Positions 6,810 to 44,507 of a DNA stretch of 64,000 nt are shown here, in pieces (positions within the stretch are counted from its first letter, which is position 1; every line of letters begins with the position of its first letter). The stretch lies in sequence record PV806337.1. One strand, 5' to 3'. Made by a program: the position numbers and the translations under genes. The notes below the pieces were generated by a model. It worked only from the letters and a program-made list of their open reading frames with translations. It was not told the DNA's origin and ran no database searches. Origin of the DNA: a phage.

Positions 6810-7577
6810 TTATTCAGCAGCCGCAGCTTTTGCATCCAGTTTAGCACGCTTAGCGGCACCATCATAGTCCTTAGCAACCAGACCACGACGAGACAGCATA
6901 GATTTAACACCGCGCTCAGACTTACCAGTTTTCTCAGCGATCTCAGCAACAGTCATGTTAACCAGATCCAGACCTTCTAACAGATCTTCACGAGTTTTAG
7001 CACTTGAGGTTTCCTGTACCGGCATAGCAGCGATACGACCTTCACGAAGCAGGCTCAGAGCTTTACCGCGGATCTGCTTAATATTACGACCGAAGTGAGC
7101 AGCGATAGCTTCAATAGTAGCACCAGCAACAACCTGATTAACAAAATCAGTTTCTTCATCTGGAGTGAAGGAACGAACAGCAGCAGCTTTTTCGGTTGGC
7201 TTAACAGAAGCGGTCATTTCCAGACTCAGAATCTTACCCTGTACCTGCTTAGCACCGAACTGACCACCAGCCACAGCAGCAGCGATTTCAGCATAGGTAT
7301 ACTGACCAGCATGAGCGTTCAGGAAATCAACCAGTTCAGCTTCCTGCTCAGGAGTCCACGGGGATTTCTGTACTTCGTTAGCTTTCTGTACTTCAAAACC
7401 TTCTTTACGCAGTTTAGAGCCAACAGAGCGAGCGGTAACATCTTTGCCAGTTTCAGCGGCCAGTTCAGCAGCGATAGCAGCTACTTGTTCTTGAGAGATT
7501 ACAGCAACACCCAGAGCAGTGGCTTTTGCTTTCAGAGACTCGGTTACACCTTCTACGTTCCAGTTCAGTTTAGACAT
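6810..7577 (-). CDS. DNA-binding protein with three internal HTH-like repeats (T5 D5-like)
   Basis: Three repeats (YAEIAAAVAGG..., IEAIAAHFGRNIKQIRGKALSL, VAEIAEKTGKSERGVKSMLSRRGL); Ala-rich; sits in replication module. Confidence 0.6.
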   Translation of the reverse strand: MSKLNWNVEGVTESLKAKATALGVAVISQEQVAAIAAELAAETGKDVTARSVGSKLRKEGFEVQKANEVQKSPWTPEQEAELVDFLNAHAGQYTYAEIAAAVAGGQFGAKQVQGKILSLEMTASVKPTEKAAAVRSFTPDEETDFVNQVVAGATIEAIAAHFGRNIKQIRGKALSLLREGRIAAMPVQETSSAKTREDLLEGLDLVNMTVAEIAEKTGKSERGVKSMLSRRGLVAKDYDGAAKRAKLDAKAAAAE

Positions 7578-8340
7578 TATTATTTTTCTCCAATAGTTCT
7601 TTAATCGACAGGATTTCTATCCCATTCGTTTCGGCTTTCTTATAAGATGAGGAAGAACGTTTTGATTCATCCTCACAGATTAGGTATTTGACGTCTTTGG
7701 TAACGGATTTCTTAACCGTGTATCCTAGACCTTCTAAGTAGTTTGTTGCATCCGTTCGATTTGCAAAATCTTGCAAAGATCCGGTAATACATACCGCGAT
7801 TCCATTTGGCTGGGCAACTAAATCATCAGTAACGACGGTTTTAGCTTTAGCACCAGTTGAGAATTTCCACGGTAATTCGATAACATCCTTGCCTTGTGGG
7901 GAATTTAGCCAGGCTTTATAATTTTCTCCAGCCTTGCCGTCAGCCTTCACATCATGGAAGCTAGTGCAATTTTGGGATAATTTCTTTGCTGCAACCTCTC
8001 CAATTAGAGGGATTCCTAAAGAACCGAGAACTGAACCAAAGTCAATGTCTCCGCGAACTTTAGTATTTAATTCGCTAATTAACTTAGCGGCAACCTTGCT
8101 ACCCACGGCTCTAACCAAATCTTCTTCGGTTAGGTAAAAGAGTTCTGAAATCTTCGTCAGCTCCAGCTTCTCAATAGTTTTCGGGCCAAAGCCCTTTAAC
8201 TTCATTTTTGAACAGAAGTTCTCAATTAACTTACTTGATTGCGCTGGACAGTTGGACTTATTCCGACAGAATAATTGTCCGTTGACAAGATCTAGCTTAG
8301 AACCACAAGAGGGACATTGTGTTGGAATTTCGATTTTCAT
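7570..8340 (-). CDS. ligB: NAD-dependent DNA ligase, C-terminal subunit (Zn finger, HhH, BRCT)
   Basis: C4 zinc finger CPSCGSKLDL...CRNKSNC, HhH-like GFGPKTIEKL, C-terminal BRCT-like region; track start 8343 is TTG, ATG at 8340. Confidence 0.8.
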   Translation of the reverse strand: MKIEIPTQCPSCGSKLDLVNGQLFCRNKSNCPAQSSKLIENFCSKMKLKGFGPKTIEKLELTKISELFYLTEEDLVRAVGSKVAAKLISELNTKVRGDIDFGSVLGSLGIPLIGEVAAKKLSQNCTSFHDVKADGKAGENYKAWLNSPQGKDVIELPWKFSTGAKAKTVVTDDLVAQPNGIAVCITGSLQDFANRTDATNYLEGLGYTVKKSVTKDVKYLICEDESKRSSSSYKKAETNGIEILSIKELLEKNNNV

Positions 8341-8370
8341 CAAATTTCTTCCTTATCAATTTATATAAAT

Positions 8371-8542: not shown

Positions 8543-9514
8543 TTAATCGTATACTCGCTCTACTATGCACGGGATTACACCACCAGCACGAATCACTCGA
8601 ATTTGGCAACCGATCTCTAGATCAAGAGAGTTAATATAATCAACGTTATTAAGAGTCGCTTTAACAATTGTAGCATCATCAATAATTACCGGTTCGAAAT
8701 AACCAACTGGAGTTACTTTACCAGAAGCCCCTACCTGCCATTCAACTTTAGTAAGAGTTGTAATCTCACCTTCTTCATCCTCTTTAATAGCGAATGCTCC
8801 ACGAGGGAATTTATTAGTCCAGCCTTCTCGGAAGAACTTGTTGTTGTCGTTAATACGAACAACTTTACCGTCCGTCGGAATCCATTTAAAGAAGGAACGC
8901 ACATTAACAACTGTTAAGAAGTTCTCATTCTCTAGCCAAAGCATATCTTTTAAATACGCTTCTGTAATACCTACAGATTCAGCAGAACACTGGATACCAT
9001 ATGCAACGAAGATTAAACCACCTTCCCCGATACGTTGTACAAAATCATCACTATCTTTGAGGTTAATAGCACCAGAGGCAAAGTTACGTTTATTTTCTAC
9101 TTCTTTTGTAATTAGAACTTCACCAGTGATTTGAGTAGGTACTTTTTGGGAAATCTTTTTAGGGATGTTCAGCAATCTTACGTTGCTTGTGACATCATTC
9201 CCTAGAATACCATTACCACGAGTTAGTGCTTGAACAAATTCGCCATTAATATATAACAGAGAAATCGCACAACCATCTAACTTATCAGTTTCTACTTGAC
9301 CTAACGGGTTAAATGGGGGTTTATCTCCACGATTATAATAAACTTTCTGTAAAGAATACATACGATACAGATGTGGAATATCACCCTTAGGTCCGATCTC
9401 TTCTTCTAACGGGAAGCGTTTTACCAGGCAATCATACTCCTCATCTGAGATTAAAGACATACCTTGATAATATGCTTCTTGGCAACGTTTAATAAAGTCT
9501 TTTACATTGGTCAT
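8543..9514 (-). CDS. ligA: NAD-dependent DNA ligase, adenylation/OB subunit
   Basis: KxDG adenylation motif (KLDGCAISLLY); N-terminal Ia-like region; separate gene from Zn/HhH/BRCT part, as in T5 split ligase. Confidence 0.8.
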   Translation of the reverse strand: MTNVKDFIKRCQEAYYQGMSLISDEEYDCLVKRFPLEEEIGPKGDIPHLYRMYSLQKVYYNRGDKPPFNPLGQVETDKLDGCAISLLYINGEFVQALTRGNGILGNDVTSNVRLLNIPKKISQKVPTQITGEVLITKEVENKRNFASGAINLKDSDDFVQRIGEGGLIFVAYGIQCSAESVGITEAYLKDMLWLENENFLTVVNVRSFFKWIPTDGKVVRINDNNKFFREGWTNKFPRGAFAIKEDEEGEITTLTKVEWQVGASGKVTPVGYFEPVIIDDATIVKATLNNVDYINSLDLEIGCQIRVIRAGGVIPCIVERVYD

Positions 9515-12096: not shown

Positions 12097-12339
12097 TTAC
12101 GATTCCTTGAGCAAAGAAGCAAGTTCAGCATAGACTTTATCTAACTCAAAGCCTATGCGAAGAGACACGTTAGTTTTCCGTTGTTTAAGTAACCACTCGG
12201 ATATGTTAGGGATGCCAGCTAATCTATGTGGTACCACCCTACATAACTTTTCCGAAGTGTCGTAAACAGGAACTTTACGTTCTTTTACTGGGAACTTCCT
12301 TATTTCCCATTTTTTATTCTTCACTGTCATTTCTAGCAC
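12097..12339 (-). CDS. hypothetical protein (80 aa)
   Basis: Track ORF; no motif. Confidence 0.45.
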   Translation of the reverse strand: MLEMTVKNKKWEIRKFPVKERKVPVYDTSEKLCRVVPHRLAGIPNISEWLLKQRKTNVSLRIGFELDKVYAELASLLKES

Positions 12340-15103
12340 CTAGTTCTGCCATTGCTTCATCATGCATATGTTTCTCCTCATCAGTCATAAACTTATATGG
12401 GATTGGCATACACTCGATTTTACAATAGGTTCTGTACCAGTCTACAATATTCTCCGTGTTCATATCCTTACCAATACCCATCATACCAAGATACATTCTT
12501 GCATATTTAGGGTTAGCACTCTGACCTGTTTTAAGGAAGAAATCTTTCTTCTTACCTTTCAGAGCTTCTATGAATGGTTTGATAGTGACGTTTGAACACT
12601 TCTTAATATCTTCCCAGAACATCTCGTGCATCTTATGGAAGAATGCAGCCCGATCATTAGGTTTATCCTTGATATATTGTTCAACATGCTCAACTGTTAC
12701 ATCTTTAATAGACTCAAGATGGTAATAGCGAACAAGAAGTAGTTTAGCTTCATACGCATCTGCATGTCGTGGAGCACAATAATCAGGAGTTGAATACAAA
12801 ATGGCTTTGATTCGCTCTTCTGTATACTCTTTACCTGCACCTTCGATAGTTCCCCAGCTTTCACTGAAAATATCAATAGTTGCACCCTGATCAAGCAAGT
12901 AATAACGTAAAGTACTAGTATAGTTCCTAGACTCCAGCTCCCTGCGACGTGCGTATAATTGCTGTGCTAACTCCAGCCAACCTTCATCAATGTTATATTG
13001 TTCAGAACCTGCGGAGAATCCACTCGTAGATTTATCAATAAAATAATAAATGTTCTGAGCACCACGGTCGCGCCTGATTGCTTGGAAACGCATGTTTGGC
13101 GCCTGGTTACTAGTTCTAGTAATAACAAATACGTTATCAAAATAGTTGAAGTCAACTCCACTCGTTACGGATGGACTACATAATAAGCAATCAATTTGTT
13201 GGTCAATTAGCTCATTAGTTGTATAATCCAGAATACGTCTAATATCCACATCAGATGTAGAGTTTGAGTGGATTTCCTTAACTAACGCACCCGTATTACG
13301 ACGCAATGCCATGCCCTTCTCATTCAGTTCATCTGGCCCACAGTCAGATACTAGGATAGATTTCTCACCCATCTCTAGAGAAGTCTGAAGTGCAACCCAA
13401 ATACTGGATTCATCAGGGAACTCATAAGCATGAGCTTTTGATAGCATTTTACGGTGATGATTATAAAATGCAACCGGTTTATCAAACTCAATCAAAGAAC
13501 CATATGCTTCAATTGTTTCTGCACTAATATCCCCATCAGATAATATAATGATTTTTGCAGTTGCAAGAATATCCCGAAGAACCTGAATACATTCACGACG
13601 TTGTTTAACAACCGGGGCGAATAATAGGTCGTTCATTACTGCATCACATTCATCGATAAAGATTGCATCAATTTGACCAATAAAACTCTTGAACTTATGC
13701 AAAGAGTGAATAGTTGTGGACATACGGTCAATAGCACCACGCTTAAAATTAAGCATATCTACAGACTTATCGTATTGTCCTGCACTAAATTTCTTAGCAT
13801 TTGAAGATACCAGTGCTCTAGTATTGGTAATTGCTAAAAAATTACCTTTAATAACTCCTGAATCTAACCAACGCACAACCGCCGTGGTTTTACCTGTGCC
13901 TAAACTCGCTTTTACAAAAGTCATATAACCTTCTGGTGGCACAGTATTTAGTTTCAAGAAATTATCAGTTTCTAGAGAATTAGTTTCTAGCTTTTTAAGT
14001 GGAATACCTTTTAAAATATCGGGTATATCGCGTTTAGAATTATTAACAAACGCTTTCAGAGCCTGCTTACGACCGTTATTAAAATAATCTTGAATATTAC
14101 GACTGTTATCTTTAGTTGCGATATATTCTGATAAGGCTGGACGGATTTCTTTTTCTAGCCATGCAAAATCAACACCATCCTCTAATGCTCTATGGTATAG
14201 TTTGGGGATAATACGCAAGTACACCCCATCCTCAGCTTCTTCTAGTTCGCTGATAGTTTCCTCTACTTTATCAGAGGCAGCTTTTTTACCTTTAATTTGA
14301 TCGAGTAAAGAGTAAAACTCCTCCTTAAACTCACCTCTAGTTGTTTCATAGTCAACCAGATTATTTGGTAAATTTACTTTAGAACCTTTAACAAATACCA
14401 GACGTGAAGCACCCTCCGCTTTAAACGGATCTACTATACCATCGGTAAATAACGGATCTGCAAAATAATGGAGCTGTACGGAAGAGTAATAAGCTAAGTC
14501 GGCAATATCAAAGCCGTACTTTTGTCTACTACTTTCATTGATAGATGTAAATAAGAATTTGATTTGACCCTGAGTTACTTTAACATTAGATTCTAGTATT
14601 AAGTGCATTCGGATACCTGGTTTTAGCCCAGCCGAAGACGATGCATGAGCGATAAACCCTGCATCAAGAGGAAACATATCCTCACTAATACTATTTAACA
14701 TCCTAATAATATGTCGAGCCATGCCAACAAGATCAAACTTGTTACAACCACCTGTATCTACAATACCATCCACGTCCATTGCAATTATATGACTTGGGTT
14801 AGATACATTAAAGTTGCCCTTCTTACGTCGCACATTATTTTTAGGTGCAAGACATCGACCTCGTACCGCAACGATATGAGGGTCAGACGTTAAACGTCTC
14901 ATAAGAGGAAGCATTTCTACTAGGGTTTGAGGATCAACTTCATCAATTACATCAAACTTGAAGGGCATTGAGGCTGGTTTACCTTCAGGATGCTTTGAGG
15001 AAAATCTTTTAGCAAAAAGATAGTCTTCTGCTTTAACTTCTCGCCAATTGCCTGTGGCTAAATCGCGATGAAATCCTGCATGACCTTGTAGGATTGAGAA
15101 CAC
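12314..15103 (-). CDS. large SF2 helicase / putative replication-origin-binding protein (T5 D2-like)
   Basis: Walker A ASLGTGKTT, Walker B IFIDECD; about 930 aa; track start 15181 is TTG, likely GTG at 15103 with AGGAG 7 nt upstream. Confidence 0.7.
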   Translation of the reverse strand: MFSILQGHAGFHRDLATGNWREVKAEDYLFAKRFSSKHPEGKPASMPFKFDVIDEVDPQTLVEMLPLMRRLTSDPHIVAVRGRCLAPKNNVRRKKGNFNVSNPSHIIAMDVDGIVDTGGCNKFDLVGMARHIIRMLNSISEDMFPLDAGFIAHASSSAGLKPGIRMHLILESNVKVTQGQIKFLFTSINESSRQKYGFDIADLAYYSSVQLHYFADPLFTDGIVDPFKAEGASRLVFVKGSKVNLPNNLVDYETTRGEFKEEFYSLLDQIKGKKAASDKVEETISELEEAEDGVYLRIIPKLYHRALEDGVDFAWLEKEIRPALSEYIATKDNSRNIQDYFNNGRKQALKAFVNNSKRDIPDILKGIPLKKLETNSLETDNFLKLNTVPPEGYMTFVKASLGTGKTTAVVRWLDSGVIKGNFLAITNTRALVSSNAKKFSAGQYDKSVDMLNFKRGAIDRMSTTIHSLHKFKSFIGQIDAIFIDECDAVMNDLLFAPVVKQRRECIQVLRDILATAKIIILSDGDISAETIEAYGSLIEFDKPVAFYNHHRKMLSKAHAYEFPDESSIWVALQTSLEMGEKSILVSDCGPDELNEKGMALRRNTGALVKEIHSNSTSDVDIRRILDYTTNELIDQQIDCLLCSPSVTSGVDFNYFDNVFVITRTSNQAPNMRFQAIRRDRGAQNIYYFIDKSTSGFSAGSEQYNIDEGWLELAQQLYARRRELESRNYTSTLRYYLLDQGATIDIFSESWGTIEGAGKEYTEERIKAILYSTPDYCAPRHADAYEAKLLLVRYYHLESIKDVTVEHVEQYIKDKPNDRAAFFHKMHEMFWEDIKKCSNVTIKPFIEALKGKKKDFFLKTGQSANPKYARMYLGMMGIGKDMNTENIVDWYRTYCKIECMPIPYKFMTDEEKHMHDEAMAELGARNDSEE

Positions 15104-15602
15104 AACAATACTCCTGTGTTGGAAATAAAATAAGTTTTCTTTAGGACTATTCAGAAAGAATAGAACAACTGTTACTGTCAATTTCTCAACAAATTAATCG
15201 CAAATACTGAAGTGGGGTGGCAACTTCCACTTTCACGCTGCGCTGCTGCTTTGCTATATCGCACAAATCCTTGAGGATGGCCGCTAAGCCAGATTTGCTC
15301 ACCTAATGCTTCATATACTAGCTCATACTAGATGCAATATAACTTACAGAATCACGTCTCGGAGTTTTTCACTCCTCCCATCTCACTTCACAACCACCTC
15401 ATACTAGGTTGCTTCGAGGCCTTACCAGGGTTCCTATGGGACGCAGATCGCTAAGTATTCTATTAACTATTTGTTTAAAAACTAACACGTAACAGTTAAA
15501 ACAACCCTTAATGGGGCAGCCTAACTGTTCCGTATCGCGGATTGTAAACAAGAAAAATTAGCAAAATCAATTTTTACTAATGTCTCTCAATTCAATATAA
15601 AT

Positions 15603-15631
15603 ATTATATCAAGATTTTGGGCATCCTGCAA
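15603..15631 (-). promoter_or_regulatory. promoter heading a roughly 500-nt leader before the D2-like gene
   Basis: -35 TTGCAG, 17 bp, -10 TATAAT on minus strand; no ORF for about 500 nt downstream. Confidence 0.5.
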
Positions 15632-15722
15632 GTAAAATTTTCCGGATGGTGCTATCATTGGTCTTGAGTACGGATAAAACCGAGCCAAAATGACTCGGTA
15701 ATCAGAGTTCAGCTAATAAAAA

Positions 15723-16115
15723 TCATTCATCATTTAAGCCTGGAACATAAATCCCAACACGGTTTAATTGTTCTTTAGCTTCTTTGAGAATATCTGGAGT
15801 GTACTCCCAAATATCATCTTCCACCTGTAAAAGATGGGGCGAACAACCATCATCCGACACACGACATATGGCCAAACCACGTGGGTGGAACAAAGAGAAA
15901 TTTAGGGCAACAATTAAACCCATAGCAGACAACTCATTCCAATCCAACTCCCATTCCCCCGCGTAGCCGGATAGGAAAACACCAACACAGGGATCATCTA
16001 TTTGCTGCTCCGGAAAAGTGAAGGAGGCTTGTCTTACCCCCAACCAACGTTGTAGCAGCTTCTCCGCACGTTTCACCAAACTAGGATCAATCTGACGCCA
16101 ATATACTTGTTCCAT
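15723..16115 (-). CDS. hypothetical protein (130 aa), paralog of 16125-16553
   Basis: Shares blocks with neighbour (PCVGVFLSG, MGLIVALNFSLFHP, RVGIYVPGLN vs PCIGLIVQV, MGLVFALNYKLFMP, RFGYMIPGLT). Confidence 0.5.
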   Translation of the reverse strand: MEQVYWRQIDPSLVKRAEKLLQRWLGVRQASFTFPEQQIDDPCVGVFLSGYAGEWELDWNELSAMGLIVALNFSLFHPRGLAICRVSDDGCSPHLLQVEDDIWEYTPDILKEAKEQLNRVGIYVPGLNDE

Positions 16116-16124
16116 TCTGCCTCC

Positions 16125-16553
16125 TTAAGCAGTTAAACCTGGGATCATATACCCGAAACGTCGAAGTTTCTGAATCCCCTCATTTACTTCTTCCGGTGAG
16201 TAAGACCAACCATAACGTTCATTAACCTGAAAACCAGGAGATTCACTAGTTTTATAGTTAACAACAAGGCGATGCTTAGCAGGCATAAACAGCTTATAAT
16301 TTAACGCAAAAACTAAGCCCATTTCGTCTAACTCTTTCCAGCCCACAATCTCTTCAAGACCATCCTCTACCTGCACAATTAAACCAATACAGGGGGCCTC
16401 ATCAATATCATCTTTAAAAGCAAAGGAGATTTCGTTATTCTCACACCATATTTTCAAGGAGTTAATAGCCTCATTATACAGGCTAGCCGGTAGAGTACGC
16501 CAAAAGTTAACCAAAATTGGGTTAGCTTCTTTAGAGAATACATTATTGAACAT
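16125..16553 (-). CDS. hypothetical protein (142 aa), paralog of 15723-16115
   Basis: Same motif blocks as neighbour; tandem duplication. Confidence 0.5.
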   Translation of the reverse strand: MFNNVFSKEANPILVNFWRTLPASLYNEAINSLKIWCENNEISFAFKDDIDEAPCIGLIVQVEDGLEEIVGWKELDEMGLVFALNYKLFMPAKHRLVVNYKTSESPGFQVNERYGWSYSPEEVNEGIQKLRRFGYMIPGLTA

Positions 16554-16555
16554 AT

Positions 16556-17062
16556 TTACACCTTAAATTGTTGTAGGGCTTTACACATTTCAAGATCTGG
16601 ACTAAATTCTAGCATATAGCTAACAGCCATTAAATCTTGAAGATTTATTCCAGTTCTACCGTTGACTATAACCGTTGGATACTGGTACATCATAGCACCA
16701 GCGTCATCCAGAACACACCAATGTTTGAGCTTATGCTTTTCAACGAAGCGAAGAACAGAATTACCCCTAGATAATCCACCCCCAGTAAAATCCGTTGTAC
16801 CAAGAAAACGATCGATAAGACCTAATCCGGTCATAATCTGAACGTTCTCCATCTCATTCCTGACAGAGAACCATGAGGATACTCCAACAATCATTATCGG
16901 AGAAGGACGAATAAAGTCCTGAAAAGCCTTGAGAAGCGGTTTGAAAACCCAATCACTTCCAAAGAAAATCTTTTCGTCATCAGGTGCATGATGGTGGGAG
17001 ATGCTCGAATTGAGCACCCCATCAATATCTAGAAAAATAATTGGAGTATTACTTATTTCCAT
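16556..17062 (-). CDS. HAD-superfamily phosphatase-like protein (168 aa)
   Basis: HAD motif I IIFLDIDGVLNS and motif IV-like VLDDAG. Confidence 0.6.
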   Translation of the reverse strand: MEISNTPIIFLDIDGVLNSSISHHHAPDDEKIFFGSDWVFKPLLKAFQDFIRPSPIMIVGVSSWFSVRNEMENVQIMTGLGLIDRFLGTTDFTGGGLSRGNSVLRFVEKHKLKHWCVLDDAGAMMYQYPTVIVNGRTGINLQDLMAVSYMLEFSPDLEMCKALQQFKV

Positions 17063-17258
17063 TTTTGTTCCTTTCTAAGAACCTATCATACTCAACCGTA
17101 TCAACATATATAACACCATAGTCATCGGATTTATAGTCCATCTCCCACAGCTCACAGCGATAGCACCAACTACCATCCGCCCATACAAATATATCATCGG
17201 GGTGTGTATACACAGATTTAACTATGGACATACCTGTTTCCCTTGCTTCTCGACACAT
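17049..17258 (-). CDS. hypothetical protein (69 aa), Cys/Trp-rich
   Basis: Track ORF overlapping both neighbours. Confidence 0.4.
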   Translation of the reverse strand: MCREARETGMSIVKSVYTHPDDIFVWADGSWCYRCELWEMDYKSDDYGVIYVDTVEYDRFLERNKNGNK

Positions 17259-18054
17259 AAGGTCTACCCTCTAAATGAGCTTCTACACGAGCAATAAAAT
17301 CAGGATCACTAAAAGCATCTACCGCACCTTTACTCCAGTAAGGGACACCACGTTCTTCCAGCTGGTACATCTCACTACGAGTCATACCTTGATAGCCCGG
17401 TTCCGCCGCGAGGGCACTATCATAGTAGTTAACTACCATAAATTTCGCAGCAGTCCTATTAAGAACAGGAAATAATTCCCAGTAGAAGTTAATTACTTGG
17501 TTAGAGCAACCAACCACAATGATCATATCTTGACTGGTAATACCATCAAAAACATTATACATTTCTGCGTATGCAGGAGCATGCTCTCCAAAGAAGATTA
17601 CATTAGGTTTAACCCATTTATAATCATCTGGATCAATAGAATTGTATCCTACATCAATAATCCGTTTATTGCTACTATTGTAGCTATCAGCTACAACAAC
17701 CTCTTTTAAATATCCGTGAATATGCAGAATGTCACTATGTGGAACGCCAGCACGCTCAATAAGGTCATCAACGTTGGTAGTCAAGTTTACTACTTGACCT
17801 GGATATTGTTTATACCATTCACCAATACGCAAATGCGCAAGATTGGGTTCAACAGTTTTTAGCTCTTCACGACGCTTGTTGTAAAACATATGGGTTTTAT
17901 GATAAAAATTACCACGAAAGGCATGAATATTACATACTTCTTCTAGATCATAGTCATCCCACAATGCTTTACCACTAGCAGTATCAGTACGGAAGGCTCG
18001 TACACCACTTTCAACACTCAAACCCGCACCACTAATAATAATTAATCTACGCAT
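17218..18054 (-). CDS. Sir2-family (sirtuin-like) NAD-binding protein lacking the zinc ribbon
   Basis: Sirtuin motifs ISGAGLSVESGVRAFR, TTNVDDLIERAG, HIHGYL, KPNVIFFGE, IIVVGCS; no CxxC...CxxC zinc module. Confidence 0.65.
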   Translation of the reverse strand: MRRLIIISGAGLSVESGVRAFRTDTASGKALWDDYDLEEVCNIHAFRGNFYHKTHMFYNKRREELKTVEPNLAHLRIGEWYKQYPGQVVNLTTNVDDLIERAGVPHSDILHIHGYLKEVVVADSYNSSNKRIIDVGYNSIDPDDYKWVKPNVIFFGEHAPAYAEMYNVFDGITSQDMIIVVGCSNQVINFYWELFPVLNRTAAKFMVVNYYDSALAAEPGYQGMTRSEMYQLEERGVPYWSKGAVDAFSDPDFIARVEAHLEGRPYVSRSKGNRYVHS

Positions 18055-18268
18055 TTTTCACCTGTTCTCTGAAGTTTTGCCCAATACTGTCTAATAGCTC
18101 AGCTAATTCTTTATTGCCTTTCTCCATTAAGGTATTAGCAATAACTTCTAGCATAGTAGCGCAGGATTCAACACCATCCTTATAGCCAGTTTCCCACTGC
18201 TGCATTAATGCATTTTCCAAAGCGGAGTTTAAACCCTTATCTGGTAGCATCGGCTTCGAGAATGCCAT
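18047..18268 (-). CDS. hypothetical protein (73 aa)
   Basis: Track ORF in overlapping operon. Confidence 0.45.
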   Translation of the reverse strand: MAFSKPMLPDKGLNSALENALMQQWETGYKDGVESCATMLEVIANTLMEKGNKELAELLDSIGQNFREQVKNA

Positions 18269-18461
18269 AAAGTTTCTCCTCTAGTTCCATAACACGATTT
18301 TCATAAGAGGCACGCAACTTTTCAATTGCCAGTGCACGCACTGTAACCTCATTAGAGTTAATAGCTAATTGGGCCAGATCTTCTGTTTCCATACGTCCGT
18401 TGTAAATTAATCGATATTTAAGGTGTTTCACATTCTTAGTCATTATTAAACTCCACTGCAA
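18237..18461 (-). CDS. hypothetical protein (74 aa)
   Basis: Track ORF in overlapping operon. Confidence 0.45.
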   Translation of the reverse strand: MQWSLIMTKNVKHLKYRLIYNGRMETEDLAQLAINSNEVTVRALAIEKLRASYENRVMELEEKLYGILEADATR

Positions 18462-18816
18462 CTGTTTCTAGGTCTTCGTCAGAAAAACTAGAGTATACAT
18501 CTTTAAGATACTGTTTAATACTCCAAGTAATATCTTCGTACCCATTGGGGCTACGTTGGTATACTTTTAACACTCTATTATACACAAATTCAAGATTACA
18601 TTTTACTTCATCTCTGTCTTCATCAAACAAGCAATATGGGTTATAAGGCGATACATCTAGATTTGTTCCCACCCAATCGCCAATAATGGTAGGGTATCCA
18701 ACACCCTCTATATGCGAGTAATCACCTGTGGCAGCAAAGACAGCCTCAGCAATATCATCTACACCCAGATGGAAACTACCACATGTAGATTCAACTATAT
18801 AGGGCTTTAATTCCAT
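18436..18816 (-). CDS. hypothetical protein (126 aa)
   Basis: Track ORF; RBS GAGAGGAGAAAG; T5-type promoter upstream. Confidence 0.55.
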   Translation of the reverse strand: MELKPYIVESTCGSFHLGVDDIAEAVFAATGDYSHIEGVGYPTIIGDWVGTNLDVSPYNPYCLFDEDRDEVKCNLEFVYNRVLKVYQRSPNGYEDITWSIKQYLKDVYSSFSDEDLETVAVEFNND

Positions 18817-18844
18817 ATCTTTCTCCTCTCAAATTTATAAATCT

Positions 18845-18873
18845 ATTATATATAAATTTTTGGCTGAAAGCAA
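18845..18873 (-). promoter_or_regulatory. T5-type promoter for the 18816-15723 operon
   Basis: -35 TTGCTT, 17 bp, -10 TATAAT, then ATTTATAAATTTGAGAGGAGAAAG RBS region. Confidence 0.7.
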
Positions 18874-18915
18874 ATAAAATAAAAGCCAGGTCGACTAGCA
18901 ACCCGGCTGATTAGC

Positions 18916-20763
18916 TTACTTAGCTCGAATATCCTGATGTTTCACCCTGCCCATAACCTCATGCTGTTTGCCTGGGTTAAATGGACGAGCACCTGGATTT
19001 CCAAGATACCCACAAACTCGACGAGTTACTTCAAGAGTTTCGGGGTCATGATTACCACAGATAGGGCACTTAAATCCATCTTCGGATGCTATTGTTTCAC
19101 CTAAGAATCCACATTTACCACAAGAATCCACTGGAGTATTAATACCGAAGTAATGAACTTTACTAGCAGCATAATTAATAACCCATTCTAGTGCATCTGG
19201 GAATCGTTTCATATCCGGTAGTTCTACATAGGAAATACACCCACCAGAAGCAATCGGAGTAAAGTTAGATTCATAATCAAATTTCACATTGGGAGCAACT
19301 TTACGTTCCACATCAAGGTGGTGAGAGTTAGTGTAGTATCCTTTGGACAGAATATCTTCATGCTCCGGGAAATATTCACGATCTAAACGGCAAAACCTAT
19401 CACACAGGGACTCTGACGGTGTAGCATACAGGCTATAACCTAACTTAGTTTCTTCCTTCTTCTGATCGACTCTATCTCGCATGTACTGCAATACACGCTG
19501 AACAAACTTGATGCTGGTCTCGGACATTGTGTCTACATCTTTGCCAAACATGAACTGTAGCATTTCATGACAACCAATATATCCTAGAGATACAGAAGCA
19601 CGGTTATAGAAATGATCGAATACGTATTCATCAGGCTCCAAGCGCAGTCCAAAGGCTCCTGACATATAGAGGATGGGTGCAGCTTTAGCTTGAATGTATT
19701 TTAAGCGATCAACTCTCCACTCCAACGCTTTTAATGCTGTATCCACACGTAGCTCAAGCAAATCAAAGAATAGATCAATATTTCCTTCAGCTTCGATAGC
19801 AATTCTAGGCAAGTTTACAGAAACAACACCTAAGTTATTACGACCTGCAGTTTCACCATCTTCTGTAGCAGCTAGGAATGAACGGCAGCCCATAGAAACT
19901 TTATAGTCACCAGTAACTTCCACAACCTTATCATAGCTGATATAATCTGGATACATACGTTCAGCAGTACATTTCATAGCTAACTTCTTGATGTCATAAT
20001 TAACATCCCCTGGTTTCATATTAACGCCATCACGGAGTACAAATACCAGTTTAGGGAAGATAGCTGTACGCTTATTGATACCTAAACCATCCATGCGTAC
20101 TTTCAGTATTGCTTTCTGTACTAGACGTGCTTCCCAAGAAGTTCCTAGACCAAAACCAAAGGTAATAAATGGACTCTGCCCATTAGAGTTGAACATGGTA
20201 TTGATTTCATATTCTAAACCCTGACAAGCGTCATAGACTTCTTTTTCAGTCATCTCCGTAGCCATTACGGATGCTTTGGCTTCATCCTTAGTCCAACGTT
20301 TTGCAAACGCATGATTTTTGTCATAAGATTTACGAACATAAGGGGCTAATACTTCATCAAGGCGATCTACAGAAGTACCACCATACTGATGGGAGCTAAC
20401 CTGAGTGATAATCTGAGCAGTAATAGCCGCCGCAGTAGTGATAGAGTTTGGAGTGCTAATTTCAGCATTACCAACCTTCATACCATTCTTCAACATATCT
20501 TCCAGAGCTACCAGGCAACAGTTAGTCATACCTAATGCAGCATAATCAGCATCATGGAAATGAATATCCCCAATCATATGAGCATTTCGAATCTGAATTG
20601 GCATTTCTTCTAAAATCAGATACTTACTCAATTCACCTGCAAGCATATCCCTTTGTGTAGGGAAACGTTCACTCGGTTTGTTCGCGTTATTAAAAAGTAA
20701 CTCTTCATTGGCAGATCCCTCAATAATTTCCTTACAATTTCTAATCAATTCATCTTTGTTCAT
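18916..20763 (-). CDS. nrdD: anaerobic ribonucleoside-triphosphate reductase (class III RNR)
   Basis: C-terminal zinc site CGKCGF...CPICGNHD and glycyl-radical motif RVCGYLG; 615 aa. Confidence 0.9.
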   Translation of the reverse strand: MNKDELIRNCKEIIEGSANEELLFNNANKPSERFPTQRDMLAGELSKYLILEEMPIQIRNAHMIGDIHFHDADYAALGMTNCCLVALEDMLKNGMKVGNAEISTPNSITTAAAITAQIITQVSSHQYGGTSVDRLDEVLAPYVRKSYDKNHAFAKRWTKDEAKASVMATEMTEKEVYDACQGLEYEINTMFNSNGQSPFITFGFGLGTSWEARLVQKAILKVRMDGLGINKRTAIFPKLVFVLRDGVNMKPGDVNYDIKKLAMKCTAERMYPDYISYDKVVEVTGDYKVSMGCRSFLAATEDGETAGRNNLGVVSVNLPRIAIEAEGNIDLFFDLLELRVDTALKALEWRVDRLKYIQAKAAPILYMSGAFGLRLEPDEYVFDHFYNRASVSLGYIGCHEMLQFMFGKDVDTMSETSIKFVQRVLQYMRDRVDQKKEETKLGYSLYATPSESLCDRFCRLDREYFPEHEDILSKGYYTNSHHLDVERKVAPNVKFDYESNFTPIASGGCISYVELPDMKRFPDALEWVINYAASKVHYFGINTPVDSCGKCGFLGETIASEDGFKCPICGNHDPETLEVTRRVCGYLGNPGARPFNPGKQHEVMGRVKHQDIRAK

Positions 20764-21421
20764 TAATTATTTCCTCAATAAACCTTGCTACTACTTCTGG
20801 CTCAATACTAAAAAATTCTGTAGCACCATCAAAATCTTTATATTGACAATTATATTCCTTAAACTGTAAATGGGTTTCTCTCTCAATATGCATAGCTTTT
20901 GATCTATCTGAAAAGCTATACTCCTTAAATATTTTTAAATCATGTATGTTAGAGGAAGTTTTAATATCTCTGAGTCTATCTTTAGTTCTGCTAGACACAC
21001 CTATTTTGGTTCCCACATTACTTACTAAAATATATACGTTAGTAGGATAATTATCCTTCTCTAATAAACATATAGGACAACCAGAATTATGATTTCTAAC
21101 ACTATCAAGTGTAGACTCCCATTTATGATCATTCTCACAGCTGAACATGATTTTACTCTTGGAATTGATATATTTACCTTCCATCTTTATTCCACGGGCA
21201 GCTAAAGATTCATTTACTTCTTTAAGATCTAAAGTACGGCTAGCACAATAAGGGCAACCTCTACCACCTTTTACGTTATCTACTCTAGCCTCCCAACTAT
21301 GCCCATTAGAGCACTTAAATATAGCCTTGGATTTAGCTGATACATACGTGCTTAGCATAACTATTCCTCTAGGAGCAAGTGCTAAGTTCACATCTTCTGT
21401 AGTTATTTTCTTTCTTACCAT
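20750..21421 (-). CDS. zinc-ribbon x2 plus T5orf172/GIY-YIG-like domain protein (homing-endonuclease-like)
   Basis: Two repeats C..GH.W......CP.C; C-terminal NVYILVSN...KIGVSSR...EFF resembling T5orf172 domain; overlaps nrdD start. Confidence 0.6.
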   Translation of the reverse strand: MVRKKITTEDVNLALAPRGIVMLSTYVSAKSKAIFKCSNGHSWEARVDNVKGGRGCPYCASRTLDLKEVNESLAARGIKMEGKYINSKSKIMFSCENDHKWESTLDSVRNHNSGCPICLLEKDNYPTNVYILVSNVGTKIGVSSRTKDRLRDIKTSSNIHDLKIFKEYSFSDRSKAMHIERETHLQFKEYNCQYKDFDGATEFFSIEPEVVARFIEEIINEQR

Positions 21422-21442
21422 TAAATTCTCCTTAATTCACAT

Positions 21443-21471
21443 ATTATACATAATTCCACCCCATACGTCAA
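21443..21471 (-). promoter_or_regulatory. sigma70-like promoter for 21421 gene and nrdD
   Basis: -35 TTGACG, 17 bp, -10 TATAAT on minus strand; RBS AAGGAG. Confidence 0.6.
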
Positions 21472-21643
21472 CTACATTTTTCTAATACTATTTGACTTTT
21501 GATTTTTATCAATTTTTATTGATGCTATACAGCATAATATCTTTACATATAAATAAATGATTATCTAGTATCATATTTCTACCTTTATAAGCAAGTAAAT
21601 TTTTTATTTAAAAGCAATATCATAGGTTTATTTAAAATTATAC

Positions 21644-34270: not shown

Positions 34271-34342
34271 TGCCGTCCTAGTATAATTGGTATTATCAAG
34301 CCGTAACTGGTGGAAGATGTAGGTTCGAATCCTACGGTCGGT
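34271..34342 (+). ncRNA. degenerate tRNA-like fragment (T-arm and acceptor only)
   Basis: T-arm GTAGG-TTCGAAT-CCTAC and 6/7-bp acceptor GCCGTCC/GGTCGGT, no convincing anticodon arm, no CCA. Confidence 0.3.
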
Positions 34343-34845
34343 AAGAACTGGATAACTGATGCTTTTAACATAAAAGCTTCCGAGGTTAGTTGCGCACTGC
34401 CTAAACCACGCGGTAGTTGGTTCCAGACTAACCAACCAGTCTGCTGAATAGTTTTATTACGATTTAACTATGTCCAGGCTAAAGAAGAACTTTAGAAGGT
34501 ATTCTAGGATAGTGAAGTTCTTTCTCCATATCGGAGTAGTTTTTCAAGCTATCCACAAAGTGGGAAATGCTGACATGAGAGATGTCACTAATGGTGCACA
34601 ATAGCACAGGTAATTCGCGATAACTCCTGTTGAGTAGCAGCAAAAGGTGGGAAGTCATGACCCCAAGCCTAACCGAGTCCTCAATATACCGCAGGACATA
34701 ACCACTAAGTCACCCTGACTTAAACTGGAAAATAATAGACGTTACTGTATTTTGTCTTGAAATACTTAATGAGTGAGACTTATGACTCTCCCGGTATCGT
34801 CTGTATTTTTAAGAGTTTTTACGAGAGTTCTTAAAAATACTTAAA

Positions 34846-38550: not shown

Positions 38551-38628
38551 GGTTCTCAAGCTCATATGGTATGAGCACCCGGCTCATAACCGGAAGGTAC
38601 GTAGGTTCGAATCCTCGGGGAGCCACCA
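38551..38628 (+). tRNA. tRNA with CAT anticodon (Met/fMet/Ile2), non-canonical T-stem
   Basis: Acceptor GGTTCTC/GGGAGCC with G-U pairs; anticodon loop CTCATAA; T-loop TTCGAAT with bulged stem; CCA. Confidence 0.55.
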
Positions 38629-40352: not shown

Positions 40353-40427
40353 GCACCTTTAGCTGAGATGGATTAGCGCTTGCCTGAAGAGCTTGAGAGG
40401 TTGGATCGTTACCAACGGGGTGCTCCA
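40353..40427 (+). tRNA. tRNA-like, possibly Phe (anticodon GAA), non-canonical T-loop
   Basis: Acceptor GCACCTT/GGGGTGC, D-arm GCTG...TAGC, anticodon loop CTGAAGA with mismatched stem, T-arm GTTGG-ATCGTTA-CCAAC, CCA. Confidence 0.45.
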
Positions 40428-44412: not shown

Positions 44413-44507
44413 GGTAGGTCAATCCAATGGCTGGCGTGGGACTCCGACTTGAAATCGGTTGATCGTAGTGATACGGTGTAAGGGTTCGATCCCCTTACCT
44501 ACCTCCA
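44413..44507 (+). tRNA. tRNA-Ser-like (probable anticodon TGA), long variable arm
   Basis: Acceptor GGTAGGT/ACCTACC, anticodon hairpin CCGA-CTTGAAA-TCGG, extra arm CGTA-GTGA-TACG, T-arm AAGGG-TTCGATC-CCCTT, CCA. Confidence 0.6.

What the first reader, a model, noticed from the sequence alone, without database searches (positions are those of the whole stretch)
15723..18816. Sir2-like NAD-binding protein in an overlapping operon with a HAD phosphatase and a tandem paralog pair, next to nrdD
The 278-aa ORF carries the sirtuin NAD-pocket motifs (GAGLSVESGVRAFR, TTNVDDLIERAG, HG, KPNVIFFGE, VVGCS) but no zinc ribbon, which is the configuration of Sir2 domains acting as NADases or ADP-ribosyltransferases rather than deacetylases. 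It is co-transcribed from one T5-type promoter with three small unknown ORFs, a HAD-type phosphatase and two paralogs. A Sir2/HAD pairing could process NAD or ADP-ribose-derived nucleotides, so this is a candidate host-takeover or counter-defence module.
Basis: partly seen in the sequence, partly recalled or inferred. Interest (0 to 1): 0.65.

Follow-up and report, generated by a model that had tools for sequence, protein, structure and literature searches.

The report
T5 phage sirtuin–HAD phosphatase operon
This is the known early operon T5.100–T5.107 of a T5-like coliphage, pairing a zinc-less sirtuin with a small HAD phosphatase; the pairing was described by computation in 2022, no biochemical test of it turned up, and it most likely works on NAD/ADP-ribose-linked phosphates.

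Summary
The window is a Tequintavirus, 99.9% identical to Escherichia phage EC148 over this operon. On the minus strand, 18816→15723 is one tightly overlapping eight-gene operon, orthologous to T5.100–T5.107. It has a TTGCTT-17-TATAAT promoter and a terminator hairpin.

- **Profile hits:** Sir2 (Pfam 8e-25), HAD_SAK_2 (4e-20) and two DUF7415 paralogues are all significant.
- **Zinc ribbon:** no family member has the zinc-ribbon cysteines.
- **Affinities:** in sequence and predicted fold the sirtuin is closest to class III deacylases (CobB, SIRT5). It keeps their invariant Y-x-x-R anion-binding dyad and matches no defence-type Sir2 model.
- **Prior work:** T5.102 is annotated as a Sir2 in the T5 reference record. 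Iyer et al. (2022) described this sirtuin–HAD neighbourhood and predicted Tpt1-like removal of RNA 2'-phosphate.

- HAD–Sir2 linkage survives gene-order permutation, together with two small conserved partners (orfA, orfD).
- Homologues of this HAD sit inside NARP1 NAD⁺-reconstitution operons, and next to DUF4326 in an Aeromonas phage.
- DT57C lacks both enzymes through natural deletions, so the pair is not needed for that phage to be isolated and grown on E. coli.
- The Sir2 cassette is mosaic: 53% identity between flanks of 90–97%.

The function is untested. This is a known feature with a sharpened, testable hypothesis.

The parts
18884..18908 (-). Terminator-like hairpin ending the upstream nrdD transcription unit
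   Evidence: Scan (10 pairs, 6 G-C, T-run). The T5 record annotates a terminator at the same place.
18845..18873 (-). T5 early-type promoter: -35 TTGCTT (18873-18868), 17-nt spacer, -10 TATAAT (18850-18845)
   Evidence: Read from the sequence. The T5 RefSeq record annotates a promoter directly before T5.100. The consensus scanner did not call it.
18436..18816 (-). orfA, 126 aa, unknown function (T5.100 orthologue, phrog_11748). A conserved member of the module in divergent T5-like phages.
   Evidence: phrog_11748 at 1e-73. 94% identical to T5.100. Homologues lie between HAD and Sir2 in L013 (E 9e-12) and L015 (E 4e-6). No Pfam or PDB match.
18237..18443 (-). orfB, 68 aa from the ATG (74 aa from an upstream TTG at 18461), unknown function (T5.101 orthologue, phrog_5236)
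18047..18268 (-). orfC, 73 aa, unknown function (phrog_5827). Overlaps the Sir2 start by 8 nt and diverges together with Sir2. Not annotated in EC148 or T5.
   Evidence: phrog_5827 at 3.8e-31. Only 38% identical to its counterpart in phage S126.
17218..18054 (-). Sirtuin, 278 aa (T5.102 orthologue). Derived from class III sirtuins, lacks the zinc ribbon, and keeps all NAD-pocket and catalytic residues plus the Y58-x-x-R61 dyad.
   Evidence: Pfam SIR2 at 8.2e-25. CobB 1s5p at 2e-17 with the FYNKRR/FYNARR alignment. Invariant residues across 30 homologues. AF2 model with pLDDT 86. Foldseek top hits CobB, SIRT5 and Sir2Af1, TM 0.82-0.85 on the target.
17049..17231 (-). orfD, 60 aa (69 aa from an upstream ATG at 17258), unknown function (T5.104 orthologue, phrog_5116). 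A small partner found directly downstream of Sir2 in divergent lineages.
   Evidence: phrog_5116 at 1.6e-29. Homologues follow Sir2 in L009 and L015 and share a W-D-I-F...G-x-W-C-Y-R motif.
16556..17062 (-). HAD-superfamily phosphatase with no room for a large cap domain, 168 aa (T5.105 orthologue). Widely mislabelled 'Sir2' in phage records.
16125..16553 (-). DUF7415 protein a, 142 aa (T5.106 orthologue)
   Evidence: PF24187 at 2.6e-35. phrog_2502.
15723..16115 (-). DUF7415 protein b, 130 aa (T5.107 orthologue), paralogue of protein a
   Evidence: PF24187 at 5.3e-31. 32% identity to protein a, E 7e-21.
15674..15699 (-). Intrinsic terminator closing the operon: 9-bp stem at 15699-15679, then UUUAU
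   Evidence: RNA fold of -13.2 kcal/mol, z = -4.1, matched by 0 of 200 shuffles. A terminator is annotated at the same offset after T5.107.

Best explanation
The locus is an early-expressed accessory module of T5-like phages that one natural isolate does without. Its two enzymes act in the NAD+/ADP-ribose network on phosphate-bearing substrates.

The sirtuin is derived from class III sirtuins and has lost the zinc ribbon. I infer that it uses NAD+ to transfer ADP-ribose onto an anionic acceptor. The most likely acceptor is a 2'-phosphate left on RNA, probably tRNA, after cleavage by a host nuclease. That would clear the phosphate as Tpt1/KptA does, releasing nicotinamide and an ADP-ribose phosphate.

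The HAD phosphatase, which lacks a large cap, then removes a phosphomonoester. The substrate is either the remaining 3'-phosphate on the RNA end or, as its other genomic contexts suggest, the phosphate on the ADP-ribose by-product, giving plain ADP-ribose. Two small conserved proteins, orfA and orfD, are likely partners. The DUF7415 pair is co-transcribed but functionally separate.

Shown here: family membership, intact catalytic residues, operon structure, conserved linkage and natural loss in one isolate. Inferred: the acceptor, the chemistry and the biological target.
For: 1. The sirtuin keeps every NAD-pocket and catalytic residue across 30 homologues: GAG..S, FR, TNVD, H113, FGE, G.S and N209.
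2. The Y58/R61 dyad is invariant and aligns with CobB Y92/R95. From established knowledge, that dyad binds the carboxylate of succinyl- or malonyl-lysine. This argues for an anionic acceptor.
3. Sirtuins 55-66% identical to this one sit in RNA-repair operons. V5 has RnlA - hyp - Sir2. L019 has four consecutive genes, RnlA - cREC - AAA_33 kinase - Sir2. Iyer et al. 2022 describe exactly these three neighbourhood types, including the T5-like sirtuin + SAK-type HAD, and propose KptA-like 2'-phosphate removal (PMC9503650).
4. HAD-Sir2 linkage survives rearrangement. T5 has Sir2 - orfD - HAD. L009, L013 and L015 have HAD - (orfA-like) - Sir2 - (orfD-like), with HAD only about 40% identical.
6. The nearest non-T5 relatives of this HAD are the first gene of NARP1 operons. 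They overlap the Adps-like gene by 4 nt in Serratia phages ChuuTotoro and Kashira, in Acinetobacter phage ABPH49 and in metagenomic contigs. Another lies beside DUF4326, which is predicted to remove ribose-linked phosphates of ADPr, two genes from RnlA in Aeromonas phage phiAS5.
7. Published precedents exist for accessory enzymes in NARP1 operons that convert modified ADPR to ADPR: the Macro-domain Adpp and RyDEP.
8. The phage carries 21-23 tRNA genes.
Against: - No biochemical or genetic test of any phage member of this sirtuin clade was found.
- No RNA-ligase or polynucleotide-kinase profile hit appeared among the operon proteins or the roughly 20 other window ORFs scanned, and neighbouring genes in the T5 record carry no such annotation. 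A full heal-and-seal pathway is therefore absent. It would have to rely on host enzymes or act only on 3' ends.
- The sirtuin retains the FGE loop typical of peptide-binding deacylases. Its closest solved relatives are protein deacylases.
- The HAD's substrate cannot be told from the fold. T4 Pnkp phosphatase and MDP-1 both appear among weak matches.
- Sugarlandvirus phages keep Sir2 without the HAD, and some Vequintavirinae keep the HAD without an adjacent Sir2. The two enzymes are therefore not obligate partners.
- DT57C shows that the pair is not needed for that phage to be propagated.
Confidence: 0.4

Rival explanations
1. The sirtuin is a genuine protein-lysine deacylase, CobB/SIRT5-like and preferring acidic acyl groups such as succinyl or malonyl. 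It would remodel the acylation state of host or phage proteins early in infection. The HAD would be an unrelated nucleotide or sugar phosphatase that happens to be co-transcribed.
For: - The best sequence and fold matches are CobB, SIRT5 and Sir2Af1.
- The catalytic His, the FGE substrate loop and the Y-x-x-R dyad for acidic acyl-lysine are invariant.
- The operon lies among nucleotide-metabolism genes: nrdD, nrdA, nrdB and thymidylate synthase.
- Sir2 occurs without the HAD in Sugarlandvirus.
Against: - Scores against the NCBIfam CobB equivalogs are far below their cut-offs (100 bits against 243-320).
- The zinc module, which in canonical sirtuins is part of the small domain forming one wall of the substrate cleft, has lost its metal ligands in the whole clade.
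- Close orthologues sit in operons with RnlA, cREC and a kinase. A protein deacylase does not explain that.
- HAD linkage is retained through rearrangement.
Confidence: 0.25
2. The pair is a counter-defence module acting on small molecules, not RNA. It would destroy or convert NAD-derived products or signals made by host defence systems, such as ADPR-1''-phosphate from RES-type NAD phosphorylases, 2'-phospho-ADPR or ADPR-based signals. The HAD would be the phosphatase and the sirtuin a glycosyl or base-exchange enzyme.
For: - HAD homologues are the first gene of NARP1 operons in at least three isolates and three metagenomic contigs.
- A HAD homologue is adjacent to DUF4326.
- NARP1 accessory enzymes that feed ADPR into the pathway are an established theme.
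- The Sir2 cassette is mosaic: 53% identity between flanks of 90-97%. That pattern is common for genes in host-virus conflict.
- The pair is lost in a natural isolate, as expected of an accessory gene whose value depends on the host.
Against: - No Adps or Namat was seen in this window, so producing ADPR would not rebuild NAD+ here.
- No sirtuin is known to act on free ADPR derivatives. (The early CobB/CobT link to phosphoribosyl transfer is cited in PMC9503650.)
- The sirtuin clade's own conserved neighbours are RNA-repair genes, not NAD-salvage genes.
Confidence: 0.2
3. The sirtuin is a bulk NADase that depletes host NAD+ as a host shut-off weapon.
For: Only the loss of the zinc ribbon. From memory, defence NADases of the Sir2 superfamily also lack it.
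Against: - No PADLOC Sir2 model matches at E <= 0.01.
- No defence Sir2 appears among the top 50 Foldseek PDB hits.
- The phage's own DNA ligase is NAD-dependent (window 8543-9514 and 7570-8343; ligA/ligB in T5).
- Related T5-like phages invest in NAD+ rebuilding through NARP3 in Bas30.
Confidence: 0.05

Closest known systems
Phage sirtuin + 'Swiss-army-knife' HAD neighbourhood of Escherichia phage SP15-type phages (Iyer, Burroughs, Anantharaman & Aravind 2022, Viruses 14:1977, section 3.7.3)
   Same: This is the same system: a distinct clade of phage sirtuins next to a PF18143-type HAD in T5-like phages. The authors predict NAD-dependent, KptA-like clean-up of RNA 2'-phosphates.
   Different: Nothing differs at the level of the locus. 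Three points here go beyond the sections of that paper I read: two further conserved small partners (orfA, orfD), permuted gene order, and the HAD's presence in NARP1 operons. The prediction remains untested.
E. coli CobB and human SIRT5 (class III sirtuin deacylases)
   Same: They are the best sequence match (2e-17) and fold match (TM 0.82-0.85 on the target). They share the GAGIS, TQNID, HG and FGE motifs and the Y-x-x-R dyad.
   Different: Identity is only about 24%. There are no zinc ligands. The protein has an extra C-terminal segment (about residues 190-278) and scores far below the CobB equivalog cut-offs. Its genomic partners are RNA-repair and NAD-network genes.
Tpt1/KptA RNA 2'-phosphotransferase
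   Same: [quoted passage not shown] Both are associated with RNA ligases in phage genomes.
   Different: The fold is unrelated (ART fold against a Rossmann-type sirtuin). No activity data exist for the sirtuin.
NARP1-AP accessory phosphatase Adpp (Macro domain) of Vibrio phage Gary (Osterman et al. 2026 bioRxiv 10.64898/2026.01.28.702374)
   Same: It is a phosphatase gene embedded in a NARP1 operon that turns ADPR-1''-P into ADPR. Homologues of the T5 HAD occupy an equivalent operon position.
   Different: The fold differs (HAD against Macro). The T5 copy is linked to a sirtuin, not to Adps/Namat. The HAD's substrate is unknown.
Phosphatase domain of T4 polynucleotide kinase/phosphatase (Pnkp)
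   Same: It is a DxDxT HAD acting on RNA 3'-terminal phosphates in a phage tRNA-repair pathway. PF18143 was defined on RNA-repair proteins.
   Different: The structural match is weak (Foldseek E 0.1). No kinase domain is fused and no ligase was seen in the operon or among the neighbours examined.
SirTM, macrodomain-linked zinc-less sirtuins that ADP-ribosylate proteins (recalled from memory; Rack et al. 2015)
   Same: They are sirtuins without a zinc ribbon that act as ADP-ribosyltransferases rather than deacylases.
   Different: No Macro-domain partner is present here, as Iyer et al. also note. SirTM structures do not appear among the top fold matches.

Membership tests
Sirtuin superfamily (Pfam SIR2, PF02146) | Profile match above the curated threshold | tested here: met
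   88.2 bits against a cut-off of 24, E 8.2e-25, covering profile positions 1-178 of 180.
Sirtuin superfamily (Pfam SIR2, PF02146) | NAD-pocket and catalytic residues: GAGxS, FR loop, TxNxD, catalytic His, G-x-S and the ribose-binding Asn | tested here: met
   G9, A10, G11, S13, F21, R22, T93, N94, D96, H113, G182, S184 and N209 are invariant in 30 homologues.
Sirtuin superfamily (Pfam SIR2, PF02146) | Sirtuin fold | tested here: met
   AF2 model with pLDDT 86. Foldseek gives 282 PDB matches at E <= 1e-3, and nearly all of the 50 listed are sirtuins.
Canonical sirtuin deacylases | Cys4 zinc ribbon in the small domain | tested here: not met
   No Cys between H113 and K149 in this protein or in any of 29 homologues.
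Class III sirtuins (CobB/SIRT5) | Y-x-x-R dyad that recognises acidic acyl-lysine | tested here: met
   Y58 and R61 align with CobB FYNARR (Y92/R95) and are invariant.
Class III sirtuins (CobB/SIRT5) | Score above the NCBIfam CobB equivalog or subfamily cut-offs | tested here: not met
   Best score is 100.7 bits against a cut-off of 243. The others score 44-90 bits against cut-offs of 221-395.
Class III sirtuins (CobB/SIRT5) | NAD-dependent lysine deacylase activity | not testable with these tools
   Needs enzyme assays.
Defence-type Sir2 NADases (ThsA, DSR1/2, SIR2-HerA, pAgo-associated) | Match to a defence Sir2 profile | tested here: not met
   No PADLOC family at E <= 0.01. None appears among the top 50 Foldseek PDB hits.
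Phage RNA-repair-associated sirtuin clade (Iyer et al. 2022) | Close homology to sirtuins encoded with RnlA, cREC and a kinase, and, for type 3, adjacency to a SAK-type HAD in a T5-like phage | tested here: met
   55-66% identity to V5-type and Mydo-type sirtuins. Their contexts were verified. HAD_SAK_2 lies two genes downstream here.
Phage RNA-repair-associated sirtuin clade (Iyer et al. 2022) | NAD-dependent removal of RNA 2'-phosphate | not testable with these tools
   This is a prediction only. No experimental paper was found.
HAD superfamily, HAD_SAK_2 (PF18143) | Profile match above threshold, and the four HAD motifs | tested here: met
   73 bits against a cut-off of 27.5. Motif I is D12-x-D14-G-V, motif II is S62/S63, motif III is R99 and motif IV is D119-D120, all invariant.
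HAD superfamily, HAD_SAK_2 (PF18143) | HAD Rossmannoid fold | tested here: met
NARP1 accessory phosphatase (Adpp-like role) | Encoded inside an Adps-Namat operon | tested here: not met
   No Adps or Namat at this locus or among the window ORFs examined. The feature is met only for homologues at 37-41% identity in other phages.
NARP1 accessory phosphatase (Adpp-like role) | ADPR-1''-phosphate phosphatase activity | not testable with these tools
   Needs LC-MS assays as in 10.64898/2026.01.28.702374.
DUF7415 (PF24187) | Profile match above threshold | tested here: met
   120.8 and 107 bits against a cut-off of 27, with two matched stretches each. BLAST between the two halves of protein b did not reproduce an internal repeat.

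The most novel reading that the evidence does not exclude
The T5-type HAD may be a previously unrecognised accessory phosphatase of the phage NAD+/ADP-ribose counter-defence network, a third kind of NARP1 add-on after the Macro-domain Adpp and RyDEP. The four-gene set orfA-Sir2-orfD-HAD of T5-like phages would then be a stand-alone anti-defence module. It would use NAD+ to strip defence-installed phosphates from RNA ends, for example 2'-phosphate, or pyrophosphate placed on tRNA 3' ends by toxSAS-type enzymes, and then detoxify the resulting ADP-ribose phosphate. That would make a sirtuin the functional analogue of Tpt1.
Probability: 0.2. Interest if true: 0.75.

Novelty: already known. Interest (0 to 1): 0.4.

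Why it matters
T5 is a model phage, and this sirtuin clade occurs in over 1000 sequenced phage genomes. No experimental test of it turned up in the searched literature.

If the sirtuin removes RNA phosphates with NAD+, it would be a new chemistry for the sirtuin fold and a second, convergent Tpt1-like enzyme.

If the HAD dephosphorylates ADP-ribose phosphates, it would extend the fast-moving picture of phage NAD+ reconstitution (NARP1, NARP1-AP, RyDEP, NARP3) with another accessory enzyme.

There is also a practical point. The HAD gene is mislabelled 'Sir2 (NAD-dependent deacetylase)' in many of the listed phage records, which carry two 'Sir2' labels at this locus. The likely cause is a PHROG family that also matches a deletion chimera of the two genes.

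Tried and rejected
- **Defence-type Sir2:** a PADLOC scan of all eight operon proteins gave no hit.
- **CobB orthology:** NCBIfam scores are far below the cut-offs.
- **PDB sequence searches:** nothing significant for the HAD as a single sequence or as a profile, for DUF7415, for orfA or for orfD.
- **NARP3 genes (PnuC/NadR) in this window:** ten candidate ORFs scanned, none found. The scan was not exhaustive.
- **Gene upstream of Adps in contig L019:** it is not a HAD but a weak wHTH-like protein, so the HAD is an accessory of only some NARP1 operons.
- **Internal duplication in DUF7415 proteins:** BLAST between the two halves gave E 1.4, although Pfam reports two stretches.
- **DUF7415 homologue search:** it returned only T5-like proteins with no informative fusions.
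- **Structured RNA in the 540-bp gap downstream:** Rfam found only tRNAs in the window.
- **Literature:** searches for experiments on a phage or T5 sirtuin found none. Several hits only cited defence Sir2 systems.
- **Promoter scanner:** it did not call the operon promoter, and its overall counts did not exceed shuffles.

Full report
**Identity of the window.** Bases 15500-19000 are 99.9% identical to Escherichia phage EC148 (Tequintavirus) and 93-99% identical to many other T5-like phages. In total 531 phage records match. The locus is the orthologue of T5.100-T5.107 in the T5 reference genome. There T5.102 is annotated as Sir2, with a promoter before T5.100 and a rho-independent terminator after T5.107. 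Amino-acid identities to T5 are 94% (orfA), 95% (Sir2), 99% (HAD), and 93% and 95% (the DUF7415 pair).

**The observation.** Eight minus-strand ORFs run from 18816 to 15723. Pfam gives SIR2 (E 8.2e-25) for 17218-18054 and HAD_SAK_2 (4e-20) for 16556-17062. It gives DUF7415 (2.6e-35 and 5.3e-31) for 16125-16553 and 15723-16115, and NRDD (1e-172) for the upstream gene. PHROGs places each of the four small ORFs in a phage family of unknown function, so they are real genes.

The DUF7415 proteins are paralogues at 32% identity, E 7e-21. Successive genes overlap by 8, 32, 8, 14 and 14 nt, followed by gaps of 2 and 9 nt. A TTGCTT-17-TATAAT promoter (18873-18845) follows the nrdD terminator hairpin. 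A hairpin with a U-run at 15699-15674 folds at -13.2 kcal/mol, z = -4.1. The only correction is that there are four small unknown ORFs, not three.

**The sirtuin.** The best solved relatives by sequence are E. coli CobB (2e-17), archaeal Sir2Af1/2 and SIRT5. An AlphaFold model built on 30 homologues (pLDDT 86) matches CobB with TM 0.82-0.85 on the target, then SIRT5 and Sir2Af1. No defence Sir2 is in the top 50. PADLOC has no match. NCBIfam CobB models match far below their cut-offs.

Across 30 homologues of 54-86% identity, the NAD-pocket and catalytic residues are invariant. No sequence has cysteines between the catalytic HG and KPNV. The loss of the zinc ligands is therefore a feature of the whole clade. 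The model keeps a beta-hairpin at that position.

The class III Y-x-x-R dyad is invariant (Y58, R61). It aligns with CobB Y92/R95 in the HMMER alignment. The numbering was checked against the CobB sequence as I recall it. In SIRT5 and CobB this dyad binds the carboxylate of succinyl- or malonyl-lysine (established knowledge). Here it argues for an anionic acceptor but does not say which one.

**Distribution and context of the sirtuin clade.** tblastn finds it in 1008 phage records. These include T5-like phages, Vequintavirinae, Phapecoctavirus, Sugarlandvirus, KVP40-like vibriophages and jumbo phages.

- In V5 it follows RnlA RNA ligase.
- In a 151-kb contig it is the fourth gene of RnlA - cREC - AAA_33 kinase - Sir2, with a NARP1 pair transcribed divergently about 5 kb away.
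- In Sugarlandvirus it sits beside nrdD without a HAD.
- In Phapecoctavirus its neighbours are uncharacterised.

Iyer et al. 2022 (PMC9503650) describe these neighbourhoods. [quoted passage not shown] They propose a KptA-like removal of RNA 2'-phosphate. The core finding is therefore already in the literature as a computational prediction. I found no experimental follow-up.

At 168 aa the protein has no room for a large cap domain. That suits a bulky or exposed phosphomonoester (inference).

Its genomic contexts are informative:

1. Divergent T5-like contigs keep it with the sirtuin but upstream of it: HAD - small ORFs - Sir2.
2. In Serratia phages ChuuTotoro and Kashira, Acinetobacter phage ABPH49 and three metagenomic contigs, a 37-41% identical homologue is the first enzyme gene of a PRPP-synthetase-like plus NAPRTase-family operon. 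In several cases it overlaps the Adps-like gene by 4 nt. That gene pair is the signature of NARP1.
3. In Aeromonas phage phiAS5 it lies between thymidylate synthase and a DUF4326 gene, two genes from RnlA. Iyer et al. predict that DUF4326 removes ribose-linked terminal phosphates of ADPr.

Two accessory enzymes embedded in NARP1 operons have been characterised. The Macro-domain Adpp converts ADPR-1''-P to ADPR. RyDEP converts cADPR isomers to ADPR. Term searches of those two papers found no mention of a HAD or haloacid phosphatase. The HAD-NARP1 link is therefore, as far as I could check, a new lead. It favours an ADP-ribose phosphate as substrate at least as much as an RNA end.

**Extra members and dispensability.** orfD-like proteins of about 60 aa, with a W-D-I-F...G-x-W-C-Y-R motif, directly follow Sir2 in divergent contigs. 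orfA-like proteins lie between HAD and Sir2 there. The conserved set is therefore orfA, Sir2, orfD and HAD, in permuted order.

Phage DT57C carries a 91-codon chimera. It joins Sir2 residues 172-213 to HAD residues 134-168. All catalytic motifs of both enzymes are missing, yet both DUF7415 genes are retained. The enzymes are therefore not needed for that phage to be isolated and propagated on E. coli, and the DUF7415 pair is a separate unit.

That chimera and HAD fragments (SHSML-45) probably underlie phrog_18062, which is labelled 'Sir2'. It matches the HAD at 2.8e-57 and the sirtuin only at 5e-6. This would explain the double 'Sir2' annotations in many of the listed records.

**Mosaicism.** Against Salmonella phage S126, NrdD is 97.5% and the HAD 89.9% identical. 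Sir2 is only 52.9%, orfC 37.7% and orfD 57%, and orfA has no counterpart. The sirtuin and its overlapping small neighbours therefore behave as an exchangeable or fast-evolving cassette.

**Mechanism.** The best-supported reading (confidence 0.4) joins the published prediction with the new context.

- The sirtuin uses NAD+ to ADP-ribosylate an anionic acceptor, most likely an RNA 2'-phosphate.
- The HAD removes the remaining phosphomonoester, from the RNA end or from the ADP-ribose phosphate by-product.

A bulk NADase is unlikely because the phage's own ligase is NAD-dependent. A CobB-like protein deacylase remains a serious rival (0.25). So does a small-molecule counter-defence role (0.2).

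Weak points of the main model:

- No RNA-ligase or kinase profile hit appeared among the ORFs examined in T5-like phages.
- The deacylase-type substrate loop is retained.
- The two enzymes occur apart in some lineages.

**Verdict.** This is a real, correctly delimited feature. Its enzymes are correctly named, but it is already annotated and already interpreted in print. It stays of moderate interest because the function is untested, the topic (phage NAD+ biology) is active, and the HAD-NARP1 link, the four-gene conserved set and the DT57C natural deletion make it directly testable.

Noticed in passing
window 16556-17062 (HAD); L003 3854-4126 (DT57C gp102): The HAD gene is labelled 'Sir2 (NAD-dependent deacetylase)' in many of the listed phage records, which show two 'Sir2' labels at this locus. 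The likely cause is phrog_18062. It matches the HAD at 2.8e-57 and the sirtuin at 5e-6, which fits a family containing deletion chimeras such as DT57C gp102 (Sir2 residues 172-213 fused to HAD residues 134-168).
   Followed up: yes
L010 6001-9217, L011 6001-9569, L012 5001-8519, L020 12001-15222: Homologues of the T5 HAD (37-41% identity) open NARP1-like operons: HAD - (small ORF) - PRPP-synthetase-like - NAPRTase-family. This is seen in Serratia phages ChuuTotoro and Kashira, Acinetobacter phage ABPH49 and three metagenomic contigs. Each is preceded by a conserved 126-140 aa protein. Term searches of the two NARP1 accessory-enzyme papers found no mention of a HAD or haloacid phosphatase.
   Followed up: partly
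window 17049-18268 compared with L021 3307-4512: The Sir2 cassette is mosaic. Against Salmonella phage S126, Sir2 is 53%, orfC 38% and orfD 57% identical, while the flanking NrdD is 97.5% and the HAD 90% identical. orfA is replaced by an unrelated small gene.
   Followed up: partly
window 20746-21554: An 809-bp segment replaces 206 bp of phage EC148. It carries a 223-aa ORF (20750-21421, minus strand) with DUF4379 zinc-finger, T5orf172 and MUG113 domains, and it overlaps the nrdD start. It looks like a mobile homing-endonuclease-like insertion. A similar gene precedes nrdD in contig L009.
   Followed up: partly
window 15182-15722: A gap of about 540 bp without convincing ORFs lies between the operon terminator and the replication-origin-binding gene (12314-15181). 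It contains promoter-like TTTACT/TATAAT elements near 15630-15600 on the minus strand. T5 annotates a promoter there. No Rfam family matches.
   Followed up: partly
window 34272-34343, 38551-38625, 40353-40424; 44413-44507: The tRNA callers disagree. Rfam reports three tRNA-like hits that ARAGORN does not list. ARAGORN reports a tRNA-Ser (tga) at 44413-44507 that is absent from the Rfam table. The totals are 21 against 23.
   Followed up: no
window 7570-8343 and 8543-9514 (minus strand): The NAD-dependent DNA ligase is split into two ORFs: an adenylation + OB part and an HhH + BRCT part, as with T5 ligA/ligB. The phage therefore depends on NAD+ for ligation, which bears on any NADase hypothesis.
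   Followed up: partly
L005 4980-5736 (Aeromonas phage phiAS5): A HAD_SAK_2 homologue overlaps a DUF4326 gene (a rhodanese-phosphatase clade predicted to act on ADPr phosphates). It lies between thymidylate synthase and GIY-YIG/RnlA, with a tRNA nucleotidyltransferase 4 kb downstream.
   Followed up: partly
L008 5083-5762 (Klebsiella phage IME260): Sugarlandvirus keeps nrdD - small ORF - Sir2 but has no HAD. It retains one full DUF7415 gene plus a 95-aa ORF matching only part of DUF7415a.
   Followed up: partly
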